From an uncultured virus (IMG/VR IMGVR_UViG_3300016659_000217) (Duplodnaviria; Heunggongvirae; Uroviricota; Caudoviricetes), in IMG/VR virus record IMGVR_UViG_3300016659_000217: a stretch of DNA of 25,655 nucleotides; one strand, written 5' to 3'. The position numbers were made by a program, and so were the translations under genes. Shown piece after piece: positions 8,852 to 17,689 of the stretch. A model generated the notes under the pieces. That model was not told the origin of the DNA. It worked only from the letters and a program-made list of their open reading frames with translations, and made no database searches. Position 1 is the first letter of the stretch; every line of letters begins with the position of its first letter.

Positions 8852-10312
8852 TTACTTTCCGCCTTGTGCTGTCACATACCCCAATACATCCCCAGCATAT
8901 AAAGCCTGATCTAAATTCACTTTAAATTGAGCTTTAGATGCCGTAGGAATGAGTTGCATTAAATTACTTGCTAGATCTTGTGGATCCGTCGAATCAGCCA
9001 CTAATTGTCTAATCTGATCATTGGTCAATAGCTCAATGTCATCCTGAGCATCTGTAAGTTCATCCACTTCTTGCTGTTCAGGTGACTGCTTTTGGACTGA
9101 TGCCTTAAAGCTGAATGCTTGATGAGGTAGTGCTGAAAATTGGGTACTTGGAACCACTTGCTCAACTGGCTTTAAATCACCATCTTGCAAGTTGTACTCG
9201 CGAATGAAATATGACTCTGAAAGGTTTGCACCAGCATTCTTTAAGTGCGTATCCCGCTCAGCCTGTTCTTTATTTAGTGGTTTAGATTTCTCACCCAGAA
9301 GCACCTTATGTCCAGTCCAATTATTAAGTGCGCATAGTGCATTCACAACAGCCTGTAATGTAGGTGTTACCATTCGGATATCAGATTTAAGCTTGTCATT
9401 ACGAACATTTTCATGAACCTGACCGAGTGCATAACTCCCTTTACCATCAGAGCCGCTCGTAAGTGTTTGGCCTAGAATTAACTTTTGAATCTGCTGTGCT
9501 AAAGTTTTATTGAACGTCTCAAAAGCCCCATTCGCACCACCGCTCGAGCCCTGTGCTGACAGAACCTGAACATTATCTTCTATATCAATCGATACCACAC
9601 TTTGAGCATGTGCAGTAAGCAGTGCCTGATTCATATCATCAATTTCTGAATCCTTGCACTTACCGAGTAGGATCGGAGTACCAAAACGCTCCAAGAACTT
9701 TGCCCAGAATTTAAATCCATTCTGTTTAAAGAAAAACAACCAATACAGTGTCGCCAGCAATGCTTTACCGTATGGTTGTTCATAGGTGGCTTTACGGCGT
9801 GTTAAAAAGAACTTGAATATCTGATCTACAGCTTGCTCCTGAGTAGATCCCTCCTTTCTCAAGATGAGTCGTCCATCATTTTTAGGTTCAAACCATTGCA
9901 TTGGCTTTTCACCAATCCACTGCAATCCGATGTAACCCTCTGGCTTTAACTCATATACAGCCTCTTGCACGGAATAACCAAAGAACAAAGCATTCAATGC
10001 ACCTGAAGCAATTTCAAAGTACCACTCATCAAGCTGTACCTTTAAATGCAGGGCTTCTGGAGTATCACTAGGTTCTAAGCGAAATGGCGTGCCCAAAAGT
10101 GCATCTATACGTGTTTCAACTGCTTGAGCTATCTCGTCATCATCTAGCAGCACCTTAAGCCGATGGCGCGTAATACCCGCTTTGCGGAGTACCTCATCAT
10201 TATCGGGCTGCTTGCCAAAATGAGTGAAAAATGCGGATACAGCCTCTTGAGAATATAAATTACCTTTAGACAAAGCCTTCTTTGACGCTTTGTCTTTTTT
10301 AGACCCTGCCAT
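8852..10312 (-). CDS. Portal protein, Mu gp29/DUF935 family
   Basis: PYGKALL, WAKFLERFGTP, ILGQTLTS, GSYALGQVHENVR. Confidence 0.92.
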   Translation of the reverse strand: MAGSKKDKASKKALSKGNLYSQEAVSAFFTHFGKQPDNDEVLRKAGITRHRLKVLLDDDEIAQAVETRIDALLGTPFRLEPSDTPEALHLKVQLDEWYFEIASGALNALFFGYSVQEAVYELKPEGYIGLQWIGEKPMQWFEPKNDGRLILRKEGSTQEQAVDQIFKFFLTRRKATYEQPYGKALLATLYWLFFFKQNGFKFWAKFLERFGTPILLGKCKDSEIDDMNQALLTAHAQSVVSIDIEDNVQVLSAQGSSGGANGAFETFNKTLAQQIQKLILGQTLTSGSDGKGSYALGQVHENVRNDKLKSDIRMVTPTLQAVVNALCALNNWTGHKVLLGEKSKPLNKEQAERDTHLKNAGANLSESYFIREYNLQDGDLKPVEQVVPSTQFSALPHQAFSFKASVQKQSPEQQEVDELTDAQDDIELLTNDQIRQLVADSTDPQDLASNLMQLIPTASKAQFKVNLDQALYAGDVLGYVTAQGGK

Positions 10313-12556: not shown

Positions 12557-13198
12557 CTAACCTATTACACAGTTCCCACAACACGCAGACACATTAAAAT
12601 CAGATACAAACGGCGCATTCTTTGTGATTTCGACTAAGCGCTTAACACTGTCGCTTACACCCCAGCGTTTGACCACGCCATAGAATTCTTCAACGTCATG
12701 ACCAGCTAAGTAATGCTTTGGTAAGCCAGTATTGTCGCTGTACATGATTTCGTCGTCTTGATCACGTTCTACGCCAATGTGATAAAGCTCATGTTCTATC
12801 AATGCACAGAAATCATGATCTGAAGCTTGCTCACAGAATGATGCATCTATAGTGATTAGATATACAGGCACACAACCAAACCAGTCGCGCATCTGTTGTT
12901 CTTGCCGAGCTTTCTTCCATCCACCTTGGTTAAACATCACTTTTTCACATTGGCCCAATACCATGCGTTTTTTAGCCATACATGCAGATGATGCCCAAGC
13001 AAATGCTAAGAAAGTTTCATCGTCATGTAGTAGCTCAGAGAGATGGTCATGATCTGGATTGTGGAGCTGGCCACCAATGGTCAAAAAGTTTTTAATCACC
13101 CATTCTTTTAATTCCACGGCGGGCGCAAGGCGAATTGCTTCTTCTTCCTCAGCCTGATCAATGAGATCTGTCGGCGGGAATGGTCTGATTTGTTCCAT
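12557..13198 (-). CDS. Putative phage metallopeptidase
   Basis: HELYH (HExxH) and GHDVEEF; typical position upstream of terS. Confidence 0.85.
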   Translation of the reverse strand: MEQIRPFPPTDLIDQAEEEEAIRLAPAVELKEWVIKNFLTIGGQLHNPDHDHLSELLHDDETFLAFAWASSACMAKKRMVLGQCEKVMFNQGGWKKARQEQQMRDWFGCVPVYLITIDASFCEQASDHDFCALIEHELYHIGVERDQDDEIMYSDNTGLPKHYLAGHDVEEFYGVVKRWGVSDSVKRLVEITKNAPFVSDFNVSACCGNCVIG

Positions 13199-13595
13199 CT
13201 TCTAATCTCTCTAACTGCGAATTGATCCACCGAATCACACCACCCGACTCAATTGCATGTGGCTCAAAACGCTGAATCCTGTAACCCATATCTTCAGCTA
13301 GATCATATTTACTAATTGCATTCGCTATCTTTTTTCCACCACGACCAACTGACCAAGGACTACCTGCTATTTCAATAAGAAGTCTCAGCTTCACAATATA
13401 AAAATCGAATCGCCAGTTTTTAGTGGATTCAAATTGAAATTTACGCTCATAGCCAACCAGGTGTTCTTCTAATTCCTGAAATAAAGTCTCTTCAGCTTCT
13501 AAGTATGTTTCTTTTGCTTTTGGTAGCGGTTTAGAACGTGGTTTGGACTTAGGCGAACGTTTTTTAGTTTTCCAGAAATAATCGTATGCGTTCAT
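13158..13595 (-). CDS. DUF559/Vsr-like endonuclease-fold protein
   Basis: WRFDF...LLIEIAG..W...KY..A...GY...RF. Confidence 0.7.
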   Translation of the reverse strand: MNAYDYFWKTKKRSPKSKPRSKPLPKAKETYLEAEETLFQELEEHLVGYERKFQFESTKNWRFDFYIVKLRLLIEIAGSPWSVGRGGKKIANAISKYDLAEDMGYRIQRFEPHAIESGGVIRWINSQLERLEDGTNQTIPADRSH

Positions 13596-13641: not shown

Positions 13642-14502
13642 TTAGTCGGATATTCTCAACGCTGGTCTTAACACCCTAAATATTGCAATGGGTGTCATGC
13701 CAAAAGCAACACTCGGTCTACCAAATTGCTCCTTAAGCATTGTCATTGTCTGAGTCACAAGACTTTTGATCTCATTCTGATCCGTATAATATGTAAAATC
13801 ATCAAATGGTACCGCATCTAGAACACCTAATACATACCACTTTCCTGACATAAACTCTCCATGTTTAAAATTTATATCTAGTCCAGCATTAGACATTTCA
13901 TTTCGACTTAAGGTCATCCAGACTTCAGTGCATAATGGCACCCCATCTTCACGAAACTCACCCGTCTCCACGAGCAACTTACCCTCTAATGCGTAGGGAA
14001 CTTCTTGTATGAATTTCAGTGCAGGCTTAAGAGCCTCAACCATCTCCGCTTTCTTTTTTTTATGCGAATTAGTAACACCTGGCAAAGTTGCAACCATAAA
14101 ATCTGTTGCAGGTTCCATAAATTCTTTGATAACAGAAACATCAACTACGCTTAAACGCCCCTCTAGTAATACAAGACTCCCAAGTTGGTTAGCATCTAAT
14201 TCGCGGTGAATAAACCCTAGCTCATCAAGGCGATTTATCATTTCTCTAGGCATTGTATGGGTTGCATCGTATTGATGTTCAGCGCCAAGACTCGCTGAGT
14301 GATCTGTCGCTACTTTGCCATTAGCTATTGCGGGAATTCCTGCTCCTGCCTCTAGCTTGCGAATATCTGTGATATTGCTAGTATTTTTAAAAGATGCTAA
14401 AGCTCCATTCCCAGTAAGCTGAGCATAGAACGATTTAATTTTTGTGTTATCTAAATAAAAGAAATCAAAGATTGATTCGATGCTTTGTAATTCTTGCGCC
14501 AC
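13642..14502 (-). CDS. Hypothetical moron protein, DUF6414-like (~286 aa)
   Basis: DFFYLD..KI.S.YAQL N-terminus and TPIAIFR C-terminus; GTG 14502 favoured as start (alternative ATG 14538). Confidence 0.65.
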   Translation of the reverse strand: MAQELQSIESIFDFFYLDNTKIKSFYAQLTGNGALASFKNTSNITDIRKLEAGAGIPAIANGKVATDHSASLGAEHQYDATHTMPREMINRLDELGFIHRELDANQLGSLVLLEGRLSVVDVSVIKEFMEPATDFMVATLPGVTNSHKKKKAEMVEALKPALKFIQEVPYALEGKLLVETGEFREDGVPLCTEVWMTLSRNEMSNAGLDINFKHGEFMSGKWYVLGVLDAVPFDDFTYYTDQNEIKSLVTQTMTMLKEQFGRPSVAFGMTPIAIFRVLRPALRISD

Positions 14503-14662
14503 TATTGATCTGCCCTTCAGCCTTTTTTCTTGTTTCATTATACTGACTTAGGCCGTCTTGCATAGCTTTTTGAAAAGACTCTATTGCTTCACCCAACCCT
14601 TTAGCGGATTCATTTATTTTCTCTTGTTGTTTCTTATTGCCACACCCAAATGAGAAATTCAT
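14465..14662 (-). CDS. Small helical protein (65 aa), first gene of the two-gene moron
   Basis: Strong RBS AAGGAGGAG; follows a near-consensus promoter; overlaps the next gene. Confidence 0.7.
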   Translation of the reverse strand: MNFSFGCGNKKQQEKINESAKGLGEAIESFQKAMQDGLSQYNETRKKAEGQINSGARITKHRINL

Positions 14663-14715: not shown

Positions 14716-14755
14716 TTATCCACAACTATATTCACTATTGACATTTCTGTCAATA
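14716..14755 (-). promoter_or_regulatory. Sigma70 promoter of the moron, with operator-like palindrome and DnaA box
   Basis: TTGACA (14748-14753)-N17-TATAGT (14725-14730); TATTGACA-N4-TGTCAATA (14736-14755); TTATCCACA (14716-14724). Confidence 0.8.
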
Positions 14756-15158: not shown

Positions 15159-15260
15159 AAATTTGCGCTTTATTACTAATTCTTTAATTCATCTTTATTT
15201 TTCACAGAATATAATCCCATTGTTTCACTATGATGAATAAATCACTCAATTTCTTAAATA

Positions 15261-15374
15261 TCACTTAACTTCTTTCAAGCAATCACGACACACCTTGATC
15301 TCATCACCATCAATCGTGTGATCTATCTCAATTGCACCATGAAGGCCAAATAAACACATTAACAATCGGAGCAT
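15261..15374 (-). CDS. Tiny Zn-binding-like protein (37 aa; MLRLLMCLFGLHGAIEIDHTIDGDEIKVCRDCLKEVK), DUF1660-like
   Basis: Translated by hand; GGAG RBS; C-x4-H...C-x2-C. Confidence 0.65.
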   Translation of the reverse strand: MLRLLMCLFGLHGAIEIDHTIDGDEIKVCRDCLKEVK

Positions 15375-15389
15375 TACTTTTCTCCATGC

Positions 15390-15428
15390 AAAAAAAAGCC
15401 CACCTCAGCAGTAGATTGATGTGGGCTT
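15390..15428 (-). terminator. Intrinsic terminator
   Basis: AAGCCCAC...GTGGGCTT stem with T8 tract on the minus strand. Confidence 0.7.
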
Positions 15429-15561
15429 AAACTAAGGACCTTGGAAGGTCATTCAGAAACTACAGCTGTTTCTAGCAGCAATCATGCATACTTATTCGTG
15501 AATTTTTTGTGAAAAATGAATTAAGAATAAATCAATATTTTATGAATTAACTTTAATTGAA

Positions 15562-15662
15562 ATCTGGGTGGCGGCATTCAATACAAACCACTAGGAATAA
15601 AGAAACCGCCATACAAGCCCCGATATTGCTTACACAAAAAACATTTCTCGGAGCATTAAAAA
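15562..15662 (-). ncRNA. Structured two-hairpin RNA element, copy A
   Basis: Homologous to 16295-16397, with compensatory changes in stem 1. Confidence 0.6.
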
Positions 15663-15685
15663 TGCTCACATTTCTGTGAGCATTT
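15658..15685 (-). terminator. Intrinsic terminator immediately upstream of element A
   Basis: AAATGCTCACA-GAAA-TGTGAGCATTTTT on the minus strand. Confidence 0.8.
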
Positions 15686-15882
15686 GTTGTAATTCTCGTC
15701 TTTCCGAGTGTCAATCGATTTACCTAGTTAGATGATCTATAACAACATCTAACCTAATGAAAAAATTACTCGATATTTGCTATTCAATCAATCATTTTAT
15801 TTCGTATATTTTTGATAAATATCACGTTTAATTCACAAAGGATATGATGTTTGATTGAATTATTTGCGTTTACCTAAGACAT

Positions 15883-15917
15883 AAAAAAAGCCCACATTAT
15901 GAGGGTTAATATGGGCT
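15883..15917 (-). terminator. Intrinsic terminator
   Basis: AGCCCAT...GTGGGCTTTTTTT on the minus strand. Confidence 0.65.
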
Positions 15918-16252
15918 CCCTTATCATTTGCGCTGATTTGGGTAAATGTGTCGCTATATAACAACGGAAAAAGAATAAATTGATTTAATAAAAATGCTAA
16001 TTTATTTTCATTATATGTATTTAAAATACATTTAAAAAAGTTATAACGATAGGAAAGCCCTCTCCGCGGGGCCAAACGCTACTCACAATCACATCAACCT
16101 TACATGCACGGTCAACTTCACTTGCTTTCATTCTCATTAAGGTCGGGTTGCCAAGCCCTAGCTGGAATTGCCTAAAATAACTAGGCGTTTACTCAAGGCA
16201 TGTTCTGTAAGCCGGCACACTCACAGGATATGATTGCCATATTTCAGGCAAC

Positions 16253-16280
16253 AAAAAAGCCCGATTATTTGACAGGGCTT
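16253..16280 (-). terminator. Intrinsic terminator
   Basis: AAGCCC...GGGCTTTTTT on the minus strand. Confidence 0.7.
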
Positions 16281-16294
16281 CGATGTATGTAAAT

Positions 16295-16397
16295 ATCTGG
16301 GTGGCGGCATTAAAATTTAAACCACTACGATTAAAGTTAAGCCGCCATTGGGTGCCTTGATATTGCTTTCACGGAACATTTCTCAAGGCATTAAAAA
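16295..16397 (-). ncRNA. Structured two-hairpin RNA element, copy B
   Basis: Stems TGCCTTGA/TCAAGGCA and TGGCGGC/GCCGCCA; homologous to 15562-15662. Confidence 0.6.
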
Positions 16398-16422
16398 AAG
16401 CCCATCTATTGATGAGCTTTTT
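16393..16422 (-). terminator. tR'-like terminator just downstream of the late promoter
   Basis: AAAAAGCTCATC-AATA-GATGGGCTTTTTTT on the minus strand. Confidence 0.85.
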
Positions 16423-16440
16423 ACGGTAATCAAGTGAATT

Positions 16441-16495
16441 ACTATAACTTCGTCCACTATAACAGAAATATGCCATACCCTGTCTGGACAGTCAA
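16441..16495 (-). promoter_or_regulatory. pR'-like late promoter with putative Q-binding element and -10-like pause elements
   Basis: TTGACT (16490-16495)-N17-CATATT (16467-16472); TGTC-CA-GACA palindrome abutting the -35; GTTATAGT at 16456-16463 and 16441-16448. Confidence 0.75.
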
Positions 16496-16935
16496 TTGAT
16501 TCTTAACCTTTTATCATGTCCATTTAAAAAATACTTGCCTGCAAAAATCATGTTATCAATTGAGGTTTTCCCAAGCTTGAACTCATTCGCCATCTGTCTT
16601 AGAGACATACCCCTTACGTTCTTATCAATGAATAGGCACAGCGCTGCTTTAGCTGAATCACAAATACGAGTAGAGAATTTTAAGTCTACTATTAACTTAC
16701 GCACTTCTTCTGCTTCATGATCTGTGATTTTGCAGATCACGGCGTCTTTACGGCTACTCTCATACCCTTTGTTATTTTCACAAATCAACCAATAAATCTG
16801 ATTTACACATAAGTTATCAGGAGCATTTCCCGATGCCATTCGACAGGTTTGGACATATGCACCATATTGCTTAAACCATTCTTCTGCCGTGAACTTAGAC
16901 CAATCCATAACTGTTGTTTTTACAATTGCATTCAT
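16492..16935 (-). CDS. Late-gene antiterminator Q-like protein
   Basis: 147 aa; C.ITDHEA motif and C-terminal HTH (MSLRQMANEFKLGKTSI); last early gene before a pR'/tR' arrangement. Confidence 0.75.
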   Translation of the reverse strand: MNAIVKTTVMDWSKFTAEEWFKQYGAYVQTCRMASGNAPDNLCVNQIYWLICENNKGYESSRKDAVICKITDHEAEEVRKLIVDLKFSTRICDSAKAALCLFIDKNVRGMSLRQMANEFKLGKTSIDNMIFAGKYFLNGHDKRLRIN

Positions 16936-17345
16936 CCCAAATCCCCTACCATCTTCTCTATTTGCTCAATCGCTTTGCCGCTTTTCACTTGCTCGGTGCT
17001 AAACCGTATTACTTGATAACCCACCATTGTTGCTGCGTTGTATTTTTCTAAATCACCTAAATAACCCGCTCCTCTTGTGTGCCTGCCATTACTCCAGATC
17101 CCGCCTTCCACTTCGACCAATATCTTTTTGCCCTTCAAATGAAAATCTGCTCTCCATTTACGTGAAGGGTGGAACTTAAACTCCTGCTCAAACTCAATCT
17201 TTAAAGCTCTCAGAGCAGTGGCCAATATCACCTCACCCTCACTCTGTACCTTTTCACCTTTTACCTTTGGGCGCTTAGATCCTCTTTTAGGTTTATTCGC
17301 TCCGATCATCTTTTTGTATTCAGCAATGGAGTAGCTGCTAGTCAA
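16932..17345 (-). CDS. DUF559/Vsr-like endonuclease (nin-region nuclease)
   Basis: EFKFHPSRKWRADF...ILVEVEGG.W..GRHTRG.GY..D.EKYNAA...GY; TTG start at 17345 overlaps the upstream stop. Confidence 0.8.
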   Translation of the reverse strand: MTSSYSIAEYKKMIGANKPKRGSKRPKVKGEKVQSEGEVILATALRALKIEFEQEFKFHPSRKWRADFHLKGKKILVEVEGGIWSNGRHTRGAGYLGDLEKYNAATMVGYQVIRFSTEQVKSGKAIEQIEKMVGDLG

Positions 17346-17689
17346 AGTACCCGCTCCAGCATTGCTAGGCATGAACGGTATGCAAATACACGCTCATCCA
17401 ACCCATCTTTTATTGCACTACCAAGGGAAGCTTTTAGGCTGGCAATTAAGTGAAGATGCCTTGCATTCAGTTTTGCCCATTTCGTTTTATATTCTGAAAG
17501 TTCCTTTTCAAGCATCTCTAAACGCTCAACAGCCTCTTCATGTGTAAGCTTGTTGAAGCACTCACCGTCATAGCGACAAAAGCCAAGCTCTGGGCAATCC
17601 TGTGCAGCACTTTGACAACGTGCCAATGCATTTCCATAAGTGTTGTCATCAGCACTCATAAGGTCGGCTTCACATGGAATGCGATTCAC
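17342..17689 (-). CDS. Hypothetical protein (Cys-rich N-terminus, coiled coil)
   Basis: 115 aa with coupled start/stop overlaps on both sides. Confidence 0.65.
   Translation of the reverse strand: MNRIPCEADLMSADDNTYGNALARCQSAAQDCPELGFCRYDGECFNKLTHEEAVERLEMLEKELSEYKTKWAKLNARHLHLIASLKASLGSAIKDGLDERVFAYRSCLAMLERVL

What the first reader, a model, noticed from the sequence alone, without database searches (positions are those of the whole stretch)
15562..16397. Duplicated ~100-nt two-hairpin RNA element with covariation in the late leader
Seen: two copies (15562-15662 and 16295-16397, ~730 bp apart) share ATCTGGGTGGCGGCATT, AAACCACTA, CCGCCAT, GATATTGCTT, AACATTTCTC and GCATTAAAAA. On the minus (late) strand each starts right after the U-tract of a terminator and forms two hairpins. 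Stem 1 is GCCUUGA/UCAAGGC in copy B and GCUCCGA/UCGGGGC in copy A (two compensatory pair swaps and one wobble), with a conserved GAAA/AUA internal loop. Stem 2 is UGGCGGY/GCCGCCA with a conserved apical UAGUGGUUU. This suggests selection on RNA structure. I cannot assign it to a named family. Inference: it could be (a) a cis-acting RNA antiterminator analogous to the two-stem HK022 put, (b) processed trans-acting sRNAs or sponges like those downstream of Q in E. coli lambdoid prophages, or (c) a protein decoy against host defence.
Basis: partly seen in the sequence, partly recalled or inferred. Interest (0 to 1): 0.85.

Follow-up and report, generated by a model that had tools for sequence, protein, structure and literature searches.

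The report
Repeated hairpin RNAs, prophage late leader
Two small, separately movable RNA hairpins are repeated behind the terminators of the untranslated stretch that precedes the late genes of Acinetobacter prophages; they are a real, conserved, unnamed RNA motif whose job is still unknown, and one of them looks in part like the host's CRISPR repeat.

Summary
Copies A (15562-15662) and B (16295-16397) are true repeats. On the minus (late) strand each follows a terminator U tract and folds into two hairpins, H1 and H2.

The window is a lambdoid Acinetobacter prophage. The copies lie in a 1.1-kb untranslated leader between a Q-like antiterminator gene and the first late ORF, with a Pseudomonadales-1 RNA (RF03046) between them. 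No Rfam family covers H1 or H2.

Related elements occur in dozens of viral contigs. H2 is in 21 of 151 Acinetobacter species genomes and H1 in 25 of 151.

H1 and H2 are independent modules, found as H1+H2, H2 alone or H1 alone. They nearly always sit behind a terminator and ahead of a tRNA, another terminator or the first late gene.

Both stems show compensatory changes, and G-U pairs favour the late strand.

Function is open. My best guess (0.35) is cis-acting punctuation of the read-through leader, for processing or stability. A put-like antiterminator is unlikely.

The most novel reading (0.2) is that H2 mimics a type I-F CRISPR repeat. Its basal stem and the preceding A are identical to a repeat hairpin read from Acinetobacter arrays, and the tail is similar. 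This would make it an expanded-loop Cas6f decoy. The statistical support is modest.

The parts
16492..16935 (-). Q-like late antiterminator gene (147 aa)
   Evidence: phrog_79 'anti-termination protein Q-like', E 1.9e-21. The homologous gene is annotated antiterminator Q in phage vB_AbaS_Ftm.
16467..16495 (-). Late-promoter-like site (TTGACT, 17 nt, CATATT with TG) directly behind the Q gene
   Evidence: Consensus scan. The block 16393-16498 is the only part of the leader that matches 10 Acinetobacter phage records.
16393..16418 (-). First leader terminator (tR'-like): stem AGCUCAUC/GAUGGGCU plus U7
   Evidence: Read from the sequence. The same hairpin-plus-U-tract arrangement precedes the elements in related loci.
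16353..16390 (-). H1, copy B: stem UGCCUUGA/UCAAGGCA, internal loop GAAA/AUA, inner stem and loop
   Evidence: Fold. Model R3 scores it 72.2 bits. Pair counts.
16295..16347 (-). H2, copy B: basal stem UGGCGGC/GCCGCCA (16347-16341 with 16308-16302), A/U-rich distal stem, loop UAGUGGUUU, tail CCCAGAU (16301-16295)
   Evidence: Fold. Models R1 and R2 score it 78-80 bits. Contigs from other samples break off at 16348 and 16295 (table 7).
16253..16278 (-). Second terminator (t2) 15 nt behind H2(B)
   Evidence: Read from the sequence. The same H2-plus-t2 arrangement is seen in 16 of 38 H2-only units.
16056..16227 (-). Pseudomonadales-1 RNA (RF03046), a cargo module between the two copies
   Evidence: cmscan 110 bits against gathering score 68, E 2.4e-25.
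15884..15922 (-). Terminator-like hairpin plus U tract inside the leader
   Evidence: Terminator scan.
15658..15684 (-). Hairpin AUGCUCACA-GAAA-UGUGAGCAU plus U5 directly in front of copy A
   Evidence: Read from the sequence. The same block precedes H1 in L006, L036, L047, L073, L107, L197, L198 and L238.
15617..15655 (-). H1, copy A: stem GCUCCGA/UCGGGGC, same internal loop
   Evidence: Fold. R3 scores it 63.2 bits.
15562..15611 (-). H2, copy A: basal stem UGGCGGU/GCCGCCA (15611-15605 with 15575-15569), loop UAGUGGUUU, tail CCCAGAU (15568-15562)
   Evidence: Fold. R1 and R2 score it 72-74 bits.
15385..15555 (-). Further conserved non-coding module ending in a terminator (GCCCAC...GUGGGC plus U8); candidate small RNA
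   Evidence: Read from the sequence. The same module follows H1 or H2 in L243, L244, L245, L238, L006 and L036. No Rfam match above threshold.
15261..15374 (-). First late ORF (37 aa, MLRLL...CRDCLKEVK)
   Evidence: ORF list. In related loci the homologous ORF starts about 15-20 nt behind H2, after an AGGAG.

Best explanation
H1 and H2 are two independent, conserved, structured RNA modules of an unnamed family confined, as far as searched, to Acinetobacter prophages. Decayed remnants occur on Acinetobacter plasmids.

They are made only as part of the late-strand transcript that reads through the leader terminators once the Q-like protein acts, or by leak-through.

I think they most likely act in cis on that long untranslated RNA as punctuation. 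Each unit sits directly behind a terminator hairpin and in front of the next functional piece (a tRNA, a small RNA or the first late ORF). Cutting in the U tract, or in the conserved tail CC(C/U)AGAU, would then leave an upstream piece ending like a terminated RNA and a downstream piece capped by a stable hairpin.

The base and tail shared by both hairpins (A-UG...CA-CCYAGAU) and their conserved loops point to recognition by a protein.

Shown: existence, conservation, modularity, position, strand and base-pairing constraint. Inferred: transcription, cleavage, the protein partner and any effect on stability.
For: Position:
- 80 of 90 distinct units have a T tract in the 12 nt upstream. The 10 exceptions are mostly interrupted T tracts or parsing misses.
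- By my patterns, 33 H1+H2 units are followed by a tRNA (10), RBS+ATG (7), a terminator (4), module X (3) or other (9).
- 38 H2-only units are followed by a terminator (16), RBS+ATG (4), a tRNA (3), module X (1) or other (14).
- tRNA-Arg(TCT) starts 4 nt behind the CCCA of H2 in L012.

Core position: in the simplest leaders H2 is the only thing between the first terminator and the AGGAG-ATG of the first late ORF (L016, L021, L032; L056).

Structure, H1+H2 alignment of 44 distinct sequences: 96.1% of cells paired (0 of 500 shuffles as high; slid controls 31-55%). H1 pair 10-42 is CG 30 / UA 12. Pair 11-41 is UA 29 / CG 8 / AU 1.

Structure, H2 alignment of 47 distinct sequences: 93% paired. Three of 7 pairs have changes on both sides. 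A divergent class has UGCCAGY/RCUGGYA in place of UGGCGGY/GCCGCCA.

Strand: 33 G-U cells in the late sense against 6 that would be G-U in the opposite sense.

Modularity: contigs from other samples break exactly at 16348 and 16295, the edges of H2.

The tail AGAU(U) fits the RNase E cleavage preference as I recall it. This was not tested.
Against: - No RNA ends were seen. The only runs that could be laid were contigs, which cannot show starts, ends or strand.
- Plain stability hairpins would not need the strongly conserved loop sequences. H1 keeps GAGAAAUG...GUGWAAGCAAUAUC. H2 keeps UAGUGGUUU exactly in 29 of 47.
- The H2 alignment A5 was fitted to the model's structure, which favours pairing.
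- Part of the conservation may simply reflect recent recombination among related prophages.
- The copies on plasmids have lost the basal stem. That fits a function tied to the phage context but does not show which function.
Confidence: 0.35

Rival explanations
1. CRISPR repeat mimic. H2 (and perhaps H1) imitates the hairpin of the host's type I-F CRISPR repeat, with the 5-nt loop replaced by a roughly 33-nt extension. It would bind, and perhaps be cut by, Cas6f. That would titrate Cas6f (and Cas7f) away from real crRNAs, as the RNA anti-CRISPR RacrIF1 does.
For: I read repeats from arrays beside cas6f in Acinetobacter genomes. One class is GTTCATGGCGGCATACGCCATTTAGAAA (L321, L324) or ...GGCACACGCC... 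(L294).

Its hairpin and flanks, A-UGGCG-[GCAYA]-CGCCA-UUUAGAAA, line up with H2 as A-UGGCG-G[~33 nt]C-CGCCA-CCCAGAUU:
- The preceding A and all 5 basal pairs are identical.
- AGA sits in the same register in the tail.
- H2 variants with GGCGGCACA share 11 consecutive letters with the L294 repeat.

H1 and the divergent H2 class keep the same frame (A-UG...CA-CCYAGAU).

Cas6f (PF09618) is in 48 of 151 Acinetobacter species genomes. Spacers of such arrays match these phage loci: the best is 30 of 32 (L293 against L044), then 26 and 24 of 32, among 578 repeat-spacer units.

[quoted passage not shown] Acinetobacter prophages carry I-F mini-arrays (bioRxiv 10.1101/2023.03.03.530964; passages read).
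Against: - The likeness is statistically modest. With a plain 14-position identity score against 20 repeats, H2(B) scores 10. In the window 104 of 4246 possible 5-bp hairpins score 9 or more, and shuffled windows reach 10-12. Only the exact G+C-rich arm carries weight.
- The repeat's loop, conserved in all repeat classes read, is replaced.
- The 8-nt handle is matched at only 3-4 positions.
- The bottom U-A pair is missing in 12 of 47 H2 sequences.
- H1 and the divergent H2 stems equal no repeat that I read.
- H2-bearing genomes carry Cas6f no more often than others: 7 of 21 against 48 of 151. None of the 6 genomes with this repeat class has H2.
- Late, Q-dependent expression is a poor time for an anti-CRISPR.
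- No own promoter was shown.
Confidence: 0.2
2. Trans-acting small RNA, or decoy for another host RNA-binding protein. The hairpins are released from the leader and act through the conserved loops (H2 UAGUGGUUU; H1 internal loop), either by pairing with a target or by sequestering a protein.
For: - Loop sequences are conserved more strictly than pairing alone needs.
- H2 followed 15 nt later by a terminator (16 of 38 H2-only units) has the outline of a small RNA with a terminator 3' end.
- The neighbouring cargo consists of small RNAs and tRNAs.
Against: - No promoter of their own was found; the units abut the preceding terminator.
- The complement AAACCACUA occurs exactly on the late-sense RNA only once in the window (9275-9283).
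- No partner was identified and there is no expression evidence.
Confidence: 0.15
3. No RNA function. The blocks are conserved linker DNA at which related prophages exchange leader cassettes by homologous recombination. The copies in one leader are scars of cassette insertion.
For: - Mosaic joints fall at the module edges.
- Each inserted cargo (tRNA-Met, Pseudomonadales-1, module X) is flanked by a copy.
- H1-only forms look like deletions between the short direct repeats CACCCA behind H1 and behind H2.
- L023 carries a deletion that fuses a tRNA-Met gene into H2.
Against: - Compensatory changes keep both stems paired across divergent sequences.
- G-U pairs are biased to one strand, 33 against 6.
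- The divergent H2 class keeps the structure, loop and tail while changing the stem letters.
- Plasmid copies outside the phage context have decayed.
Confidence: 0.1
4. put-like cis-acting antiterminator RNA that makes RNA polymerase resistant to the downstream leader terminators.
For: - Two adjacent stem-loops on the nascent transcript, upstream of further terminators.
- The outline resembles HK022 put as I recall it.
Against: - The first copy lies behind, not before, the first terminator.
- A Q-like antiterminator gene sits directly upstream.
- Either hairpin alone is common: 57 of 90 units.
- In many loci H2 is followed directly by the first late ORF, with no further leader terminator.
Confidence: 0.05
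5. tRNA-like minihelix. The H2 basal stem plus tail (GCCGCCA-C-CCA) mimics an acceptor stem with discriminator base and CCA, making it a substrate of RNase P or the CCA-adding enzyme.
For: - A 7-bp G+C-rich stem is followed by N-CCA in 31 of 47 distinct H2 sequences.
- The units lie next to tRNA-Met and tRNA-Arg genes.
- GGUUUAAAU in the loop resembles the GGUUCAAAU T-loop of the neighbouring tRNA-Met gene (read).
Against: - CCA is replaced by CUA, UCA or others in 16 of 47.
- No T stem can be drawn.
- ARAGORN finds no tRNA in the window.
- The Rfam tRNA model gives no match even at E up to 10.
Confidence: 0.05

Closest known systems
RacrIF1 and other RNA anti-CRISPRs (solitary repeat units in phages; Camara-Wilpert et al. 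2023, PMC10651486)
   Same: Prophage-encoded, non-coding, and hairpin-based. The H2 basal stem, the base before it and part of the tail match a host type I-F repeat read from Acinetobacter arrays.
   Different: - Racrs resemble the whole 28-nt repeat including its loop. H2 carries about 33 nt in place of the loop and has a poorly matched handle.
- RacrIF1 has its own promoter. H1/H2 lie behind terminators in a Q-dependent leader.
- No binding was tested.
HK022 put RNA (cis-acting antiterminator; recalled)
   Same: Two neighbouring stem-loops on a nascent phage transcript, in a region with terminators.
   Different: - put lies just behind early promoters, ahead of the terminators, and replaces a protein antiterminator.
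- H1/H2 lie behind the first late terminator, a Q-like protein is present, and the two hairpins occur separately.
- No sequence similarity was tested; put is not among the Rfam matches.
Pseudomonadales-1 RNA (Rfam RF03046)
   Same: An orphan structured RNA carried in the same late leaders of Acinetobacter prophages, on the same strand and ending in a terminator. In L026 it is followed directly by H1+H2.
   Different: A different sequence and structure (164-position model). H1 and H2 do not match it.
Short terminated late-leader RNAs of lambdoid phages (lambda 6S RNA, StxS; recalled) and prophage anti-sRNAs (Tree et al. 2014, PMC4104026, search listing only)
   Same: Non-coding RNA made from the region between Q and the first late gene of lambdoid prophages.
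   Different: Those RNAs end at the first terminator, or are separate small-RNA genes. H1/H2 begin behind that terminator and recur behind later ones.
C4-like 'group I' small RNAs of Acinetobacter baumannii (Kroeger et al. 2018, PMC6182133, section 19 read)
   Same: A multi-copy, phage-related small-RNA family in Acinetobacter.
   Different: Group I corresponds to the C4 antisense RNA family of P1/P7. No C4 match appears on H1/H2 in the Rfam scans.

Membership tests
Any Rfam 15 family | Score at or above the family's gathering threshold | tested here: not met
   The only match at threshold in the window is RF03046 at 16056-16227, between the copies. In the E<=10 scan of 15200-16600 the best matches overlapping the copies are STnc430 at 25 bits (threshold 47) and MicX at 15 bits (threshold 75).
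RNA anti-CRISPR / solitary repeat unit (type I-F) | Sequence and structure similar to the cognate CRISPR repeat over its whole length | tested here: inconclusive
   The basal 5 bp and the preceding A are identical to the class GTTCATGGCGGCAYACGCCATTTAGAAA. Up to 11 consecutive letters match in some variants. The loop is replaced by about 33 nt and the tail matches at 3-4 of 8 positions. A generic similarity score is not above background.
RNA anti-CRISPR / solitary repeat unit (type I-F) | Intact base pair at the bottom of the stem, needed for Cas6f binding (C6-G20 in RacrIF1) | tested here: inconclusive
   The equivalent bottom pair is U-A in 31 of 47 distinct H2 sequences, U-G in 3 and unpaired in 12.
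RNA anti-CRISPR / solitary repeat unit (type I-F) | Binding and cleavage by Cas6f; inhibition of CRISPR targeting | not testable with these tools
   Needs biochemistry and infection or conjugation assays.
RNA anti-CRISPR / solitary repeat unit (type I-F) | Expressed as a small RNA from its own promoter | tested here: not met
   The units abut the U tract of the preceding terminator in 80 of 90 cases. The promoter scan places no site in front of them. Transcription itself could not be observed.
HK022 put-type antiterminator RNA | Lies between a promoter and the terminators it suppresses, and acts without a protein antiterminator | tested here: not met
   Copy B lies behind the first terminator. 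A Q-like gene is directly upstream.
HK022 put-type antiterminator RNA | Two stem-loops that work together | tested here: not met
   57 of 90 distinct units carry only one of the two hairpins.
tRNA / tRNA-like minihelix | Acceptor stem followed by discriminator base and CCA; a T arm | tested here: not met
   CCA lies within 4 nt of the stem in 31 of 47 and is absent in 16. There is no T stem. ARAGORN finds 0 genes. No tRNA model match at E<=10.
CRISPR mini-array / crRNA-like regulatory RNA | Two repeat-like units flanking a spacer-like stretch of about 17-32 nt | tested here: not met
   H1 and H2 are 4-6 nt apart. The hairpin behind H2 is an ordinary terminator unlike any repeat.

The most novel reading that the evidence does not exclude
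H2, and in a looser way H1, are expanded-loop mimics of the Acinetobacter type I-F CRISPR repeat hairpin.

The prophage would place several of them in its most heavily transcribed non-coding region to soak up Cas6f (and with it Cas7f). This would be a new architectural class of RNA anti-CRISPR that searches for whole-repeat look-alikes cannot find.

The two basal-stem classes (UGGCG/CGCCA and UGCCN/NGGCA) might be aimed at different Cas6f variants.
Probability: 0.2. Interest if true: 0.85.

Novelty: new variant of a known kind. Interest (0 to 1): 0.6.

Why it matters
Leaders of late operons in lambdoid prophages are known homes for cargo such as toxins, tRNAs and small RNAs. How a kilobase of untranslated, terminator-studded RNA is organised is poorly understood.

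Here a pair of conserved, covarying hairpins marks the joints between cargo cassettes in many Acinetobacter prophages. That gives a defined RNA motif family to add to the catalogues. It also gives a handle on how such leaders are processed and how they exchange cassettes.

[quoted passage not shown] They would then be more common than repeat-similarity screens suggest. That bears on phage-host dynamics in a genus where CRISPR-Cas I-F is frequent.

Tried and rejected
- **Rfam.** Scans at gathering threshold and at E<=10 gave no family for H1 or H2.
- **Cultured phages.** blastn of copy B against 50,697 phage records found no match at E<=1. The 1.2-kb leader matched only through its first ~100 nt.
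- **Expression.** The run search listed 23 runs, with only one on record as RNA and all kept as contigs. Laying four of them showed cover and mosaic joints but nothing about transcription, ends or strand. An RNA-library contig of 4127 nt covers 15321-16261; this does not show transcription.
- **tRNA-like reading.** Dropped after the tail statistics and the negative tRNA scans.
- **Mini-array reading.** Dropped because the spacing does not fit.
- **Bona fide solitary repeat.** None found in the window or the phage loci. The best repeat match (16 of 17 letters at 17045-17060) lies inside an ORF, has no 5' arm, and has E 0.35.
- **Generic hairpin-to-repeat similarity score.** It does not single out H2.
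- **First H1 word pattern (16 letters).** It returned mostly chance matches: 117 stretches, about a dozen real. It was replaced by a 20-letter pattern. Of the latter's 38 genome loci, I dropped 16 from non-Acinetobacter records as chance matches before any count. I also dropped L132 from the earlier scan.
- **Loop-complement search in the window.** 13 matches with up to 1 mismatch against 6.2 expected, but three exact ones, two of which are the elements themselves.
- **Host co-occurrence of H2 with Cas6f.** No enrichment: 7 of 21 against 48 of 151.
- **Earlier scan notes.** Nothing at this place or for this sequence.
- **Papers.** A search for 'Pseudomonadales-1' found none. Searches for Acinetobacter prophage small RNAs and repeat-like anti-CRISPR elements turned up no description of H1/H2. 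Supplements were not read, so a listing there cannot be excluded.
- **boxB.** A likeness of the first letters of H1 to lambda boxB is recalled only. I gave it no weight because that stem covaries.
Full report
**Observation**

- The repeat finder links 15562-15662 and 16295-16397 through four families with a spacing of 733-737 nt.
- A pairwise alignment gives 82% mean column identity, and the identity ends at the element edges.
- On the minus strand each copy begins 1-3 nt after a hairpin plus U tract.
- Each folds into two hairpins: copy A -32.3 kcal/mol, z -2.75; copy B -28.6 kcal/mol, z -3.04; 1 of 200 shuffles as good in each case.
- The plus strand of copy B folds as well (z -3.39), so the strand has to be settled otherwise.
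- The stems and loops are as described. H1 is GCCUUGA/UCAAGGC (B) or GCUCCGA/UCGGGGC (A), with internal loop GAAA/AUA. H2 is UGGCGGY/GCCGCCA, with UAGUGGUUU in the apical loop.

**Setting**

The window is a lambdoid temperate prophage.
- It has an integrase, a CI-like repressor, Cro, CII, an O-like replication protein, a Mu-type portal, a capsid and tail genes, and a terminase.
- The gene at 16492-16935 (minus) is a Q-like antiterminator (phrog_79, E 1.9e-21).
- Directly behind it lie a promoter-like site and a hairpin plus U7. This roughly 100-nt block is the only part of the leader that matches cultured Acinetobacter phages: 10 records, all covering only query positions 3-108.
- From 16491 down to the first late ORF (15374-15261, 37 aa) there is no credible ORF.
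- The leader holds, in order: terminator, H1+H2 (copy B), terminator, a Pseudomonadales-1 RNA (RF03046, 110 bits against threshold 68), a further terminator, a hairpin plus U5, H1+H2 (copy A), and a 170-nt conserved module ending in a terminator.
- The window has no tRNA.
That is confirmed here.

**Relatives and modularity**

- A word pattern of H2 finds 49 stretches in viral contigs.
- Of 39 distinct sequences from those, 14 carry H1 in front of H2 and 25 do not.
- A 20-letter pattern of H1, which leaves the H1 stem and all of H2 free, finds 32 viral stretches and 38 genome stretches. Among the genome stretches, 22 are of this family. They come from A. johnsonii, A. kookii, A. cumulans, A. 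tandoii and several unnamed species, plus two short contigs binned elsewhere. I set aside 16 from other phyla as chance matches.
- Some of these have H1 alone, joined directly to the tail that otherwise follows H2.
- With my patterns, 90 distinct units split into 38 H2-only, 33 H1+H2 and 19 H1-only. A few H1-only calls are H2 copies that my pattern missed.
- 80 of the 90 have a T tract within the 12 nt upstream.
- What follows is a tRNA gene, an AGGAG-ATG, another terminator, module X or other sequence. The tRNAs are tRNA-Arg(TCT) or tRNA-Met(CAT), found in 12 of 16 loci scanned.
- In the simplest leaders H2 is the only element between the first terminator and the first late ORF.
- Contigs from other samples break off at 16348 and 16295, the two edges of H2.

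**Distribution**

- A covariance model of H2 (R2) finds it in 21 of 151 sampled Acinetobacter species genomes at E<=0.001.
- It finds H2 in 2 of 151 genomes sampled across the family, one being the centre genome itself.
- A model of H1 (R3) finds it in 25 of 151 at E<=0.01, 17 of them below 1e-10.
- Three of six other loci with a relative of this Q protein have an H2 at E<=1.3e-4, and a fourth is borderline.
- Copy B has no match in 50,697 phage records.
- Twelve Acinetobacter plasmids carry a look-alike. In the two I read, the G+C stem is destroyed.

**Structure**

On 44 distinct H1+H2 sequences:
- 96.1% of cells form standard pairs (shuffles 93.5 +/- 0.3, 0 of 500 as high; slid controls 31-55%).
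- H1 pair 10-42 is CG in 30 and UA in 12.
- H1 pair 11-41 is UA in 29, CG in 8 and AU in 1.
- The alignment used a pattern that fixes the H1 internal loop. The earlier H2-based set, free in H1, shows the same loop in 14 of 14, with one variant at two positions.

On 47 distinct H2 sequences collected with the model:
- 93% of cells pair.
- Three of seven pairs change on both sides.
- A divergent class (L056, L058, L268, L269, L272, L274) reads UGCCAGY/RCUGGYA where the main class reads UGGCGGY/GCCGCCA. It keeps the distal AUUC/GAAU stem, most of the loop and the tail.
- This alignment was fitted to the model, which leans towards pairing.

G-U pairs number 33 in the late sense, against 6 positions that would be G-U in the opposite sense. 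The folded strand is therefore the late transcript (or that DNA strand).

**What it is not**

- No Rfam family covers it.
- A put-like antiterminator does not fit. The element follows the first terminator, a Q protein is present, and single hairpins are the majority.
- A tRNA-like minihelix was attractive because of the stem plus N-CCA. But CCA is absent in 16 of 47, there is no T stem, and the tRNA tools are negative.
- A crRNA-like mini-array does not fit the spacing.

**The CRISPR lead**

From memory, the H2 stem reminded me of an Acinetobacter CRISPR repeat, so I read real repeats.
- Cas6f (PF09618) is in 48 of 151 genomes.
- The arrays beside it give several repeat classes.
- One class, GTTCATGGCGGCAYACGCCATTTAGAAA (L294, L295, L321, L324), has the hairpin A-UGGCG-[GCAYA]-CGCCA-UUUAGAAA.
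- H2 reads A-UGGCG-G[~33 nt]C-CGCCA-CCCAGAUU. It has the same five basal pairs, the same preceding A, and AGA in the same register.
- Some H2 variants share 11 consecutive letters with the L294 repeat.
- H1 and the divergent H2 keep the frame A-UG...CA-CCYAGAU.
- Spacers of these arrays hit the phage loci (30 of 32 at best).
- RNA anti-CRISPRs that imitate I-F repeats and bind Cas6f are known (PMC10651486).
- I-F mini-arrays occur in Acinetobacter prophages.

Against it:
- A plain similarity score does not lift H2 above background.
- The conserved repeat loop is replaced, and the handle is poorly matched.
- The bottom pair is broken in 12 of 47.
- The other stem classes equal no repeat that I read.
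- There is no enrichment of H2 in Cas6f-bearing genomes (7 of 21 against 48 of 151).
- Late, Q-dependent expression is an odd time for an anti-CRISPR.

I rate this reading at 0.2.

**Most likely mechanism**

The features that hold in every context are these:
- The position right behind a terminator and right before the next functional piece.
- A base and tail shared by both hairpins.
- Conserved loops.
- Copy number that follows the number of cargo cassettes.

Taken together, they fit best with cis-acting punctuation of the read-through leader. A protein-recognised hairpin would define where the long RNA is cut and would cap the downstream piece, while the terminator hairpin caps the upstream one.

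That is inference. No RNA end was seen. Confidence is 0.35.

The remaining weight goes to the CRISPR mimic (0.2), a trans-acting RNA or other decoy (0.15), recombination linkers without RNA function (0.1), put-like (0.05) and tRNA-like (0.05).

**Novelty and verdict**

H1 and H2 are a real, unnamed RNA motif family with pairing constraint, and are new to Rfam 15. I found no description in the papers searched (supplements not read).

The kind, an orphan structured RNA in a phage leader, is known. The modular behind-the-terminator arrangement and the partial identity with a CRISPR repeat are new. Interest 0.6.

Noticed in passing
window 16056-16227 (-): A full-length Pseudomonadales-1 RNA (RF03046, 110 bits) lies between the two copies. 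In L026 its 3' hairpin plus U tract is followed directly by H1+H2.
   Followed up: partly
window 15385-15555 (-): A 170-nt conserved non-coding module ends in a strong terminator (GCCCAC...GUGGGC plus U8). It recurs behind H1 or H2 in L243, L244, L245, L238, L006 and L036. It is a candidate small RNA with no Rfam match at threshold.
   Followed up: no
window 14725-14753 (-): A near-consensus promoter-like site (TTGACA, 17 nt, TATAGT; 11 of 12) lies in front of small ORFs of unknown function (14465-14662 and 13642-14538, the latter DUF6414). It sits between the leader and the terminase genes and may be a moron or anti-defence islet.
   Followed up: no
window 16932-17372 and 13158-13595 (-): Two paralogous ORFs (phrog_503; weak DUF559/HNH-like matches) flank the late leader region on either side.
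   Followed up: no
L023:975-1087: A tRNA-Met gene is cut short in its acceptor 3' strand and joined into the middle of H2. This is a deletion of the tRNA end, its terminator and the H2 5' arm, relative to L006/L010.
   Followed up: no
L360:2900-3090, L361:2999-3054 (Acinetobacter plasmids, next to xseAB): A cassette also seen in prophages (L007, L008, L019, L024) sits on plasmids: a small-RNA-like hairpin region, a terminator, H2, then a terminator. On the plasmids the H2 G+C stem has decayed to A/U.
   Followed up: partly
L344:1501-1532: A minimal hairpin (GCCCCGA-GAAAUA-UCGGGGC plus U tract) looks like H1 without its inner part. H1 may have arisen from, or decayed into, a plain terminator hairpin.
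   Followed up: no
window 17045-17060 (-): A 16-letter match (1 mismatch) to the 3' half of another Acinetobacter I-F repeat class lies inside an ORF. It has no 5' arm and E 0.35, so it is probably chance.
   Followed up: yes
L277:684-704 against a spacer of the array in L288: A class-1 I-F spacer matches 24 of 32 letters of a leader block (ATTGACAGCTCGGAAAGACGG). Its counterpart in the window lies at about 15695-15716, just upstream of copy A. The non-coding leader itself may be a CRISPR target.
   Followed up: no
window 16262-16432 (run X9): A 4127-nt contig from an RNA library carries this leader with a different 820-nt insert in place of copy B and its terminators. This is another example of cassette exchange at these joints.
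   Followed up: no
L044, L048, L212 (upstream of H1): In these loci H1 is preceded not by a plain terminator but by ...GGACTGGATTCCAGTC...CTGGCGGGTTTCA. This may be the 3' end of another structured RNA.
   Followed up: no
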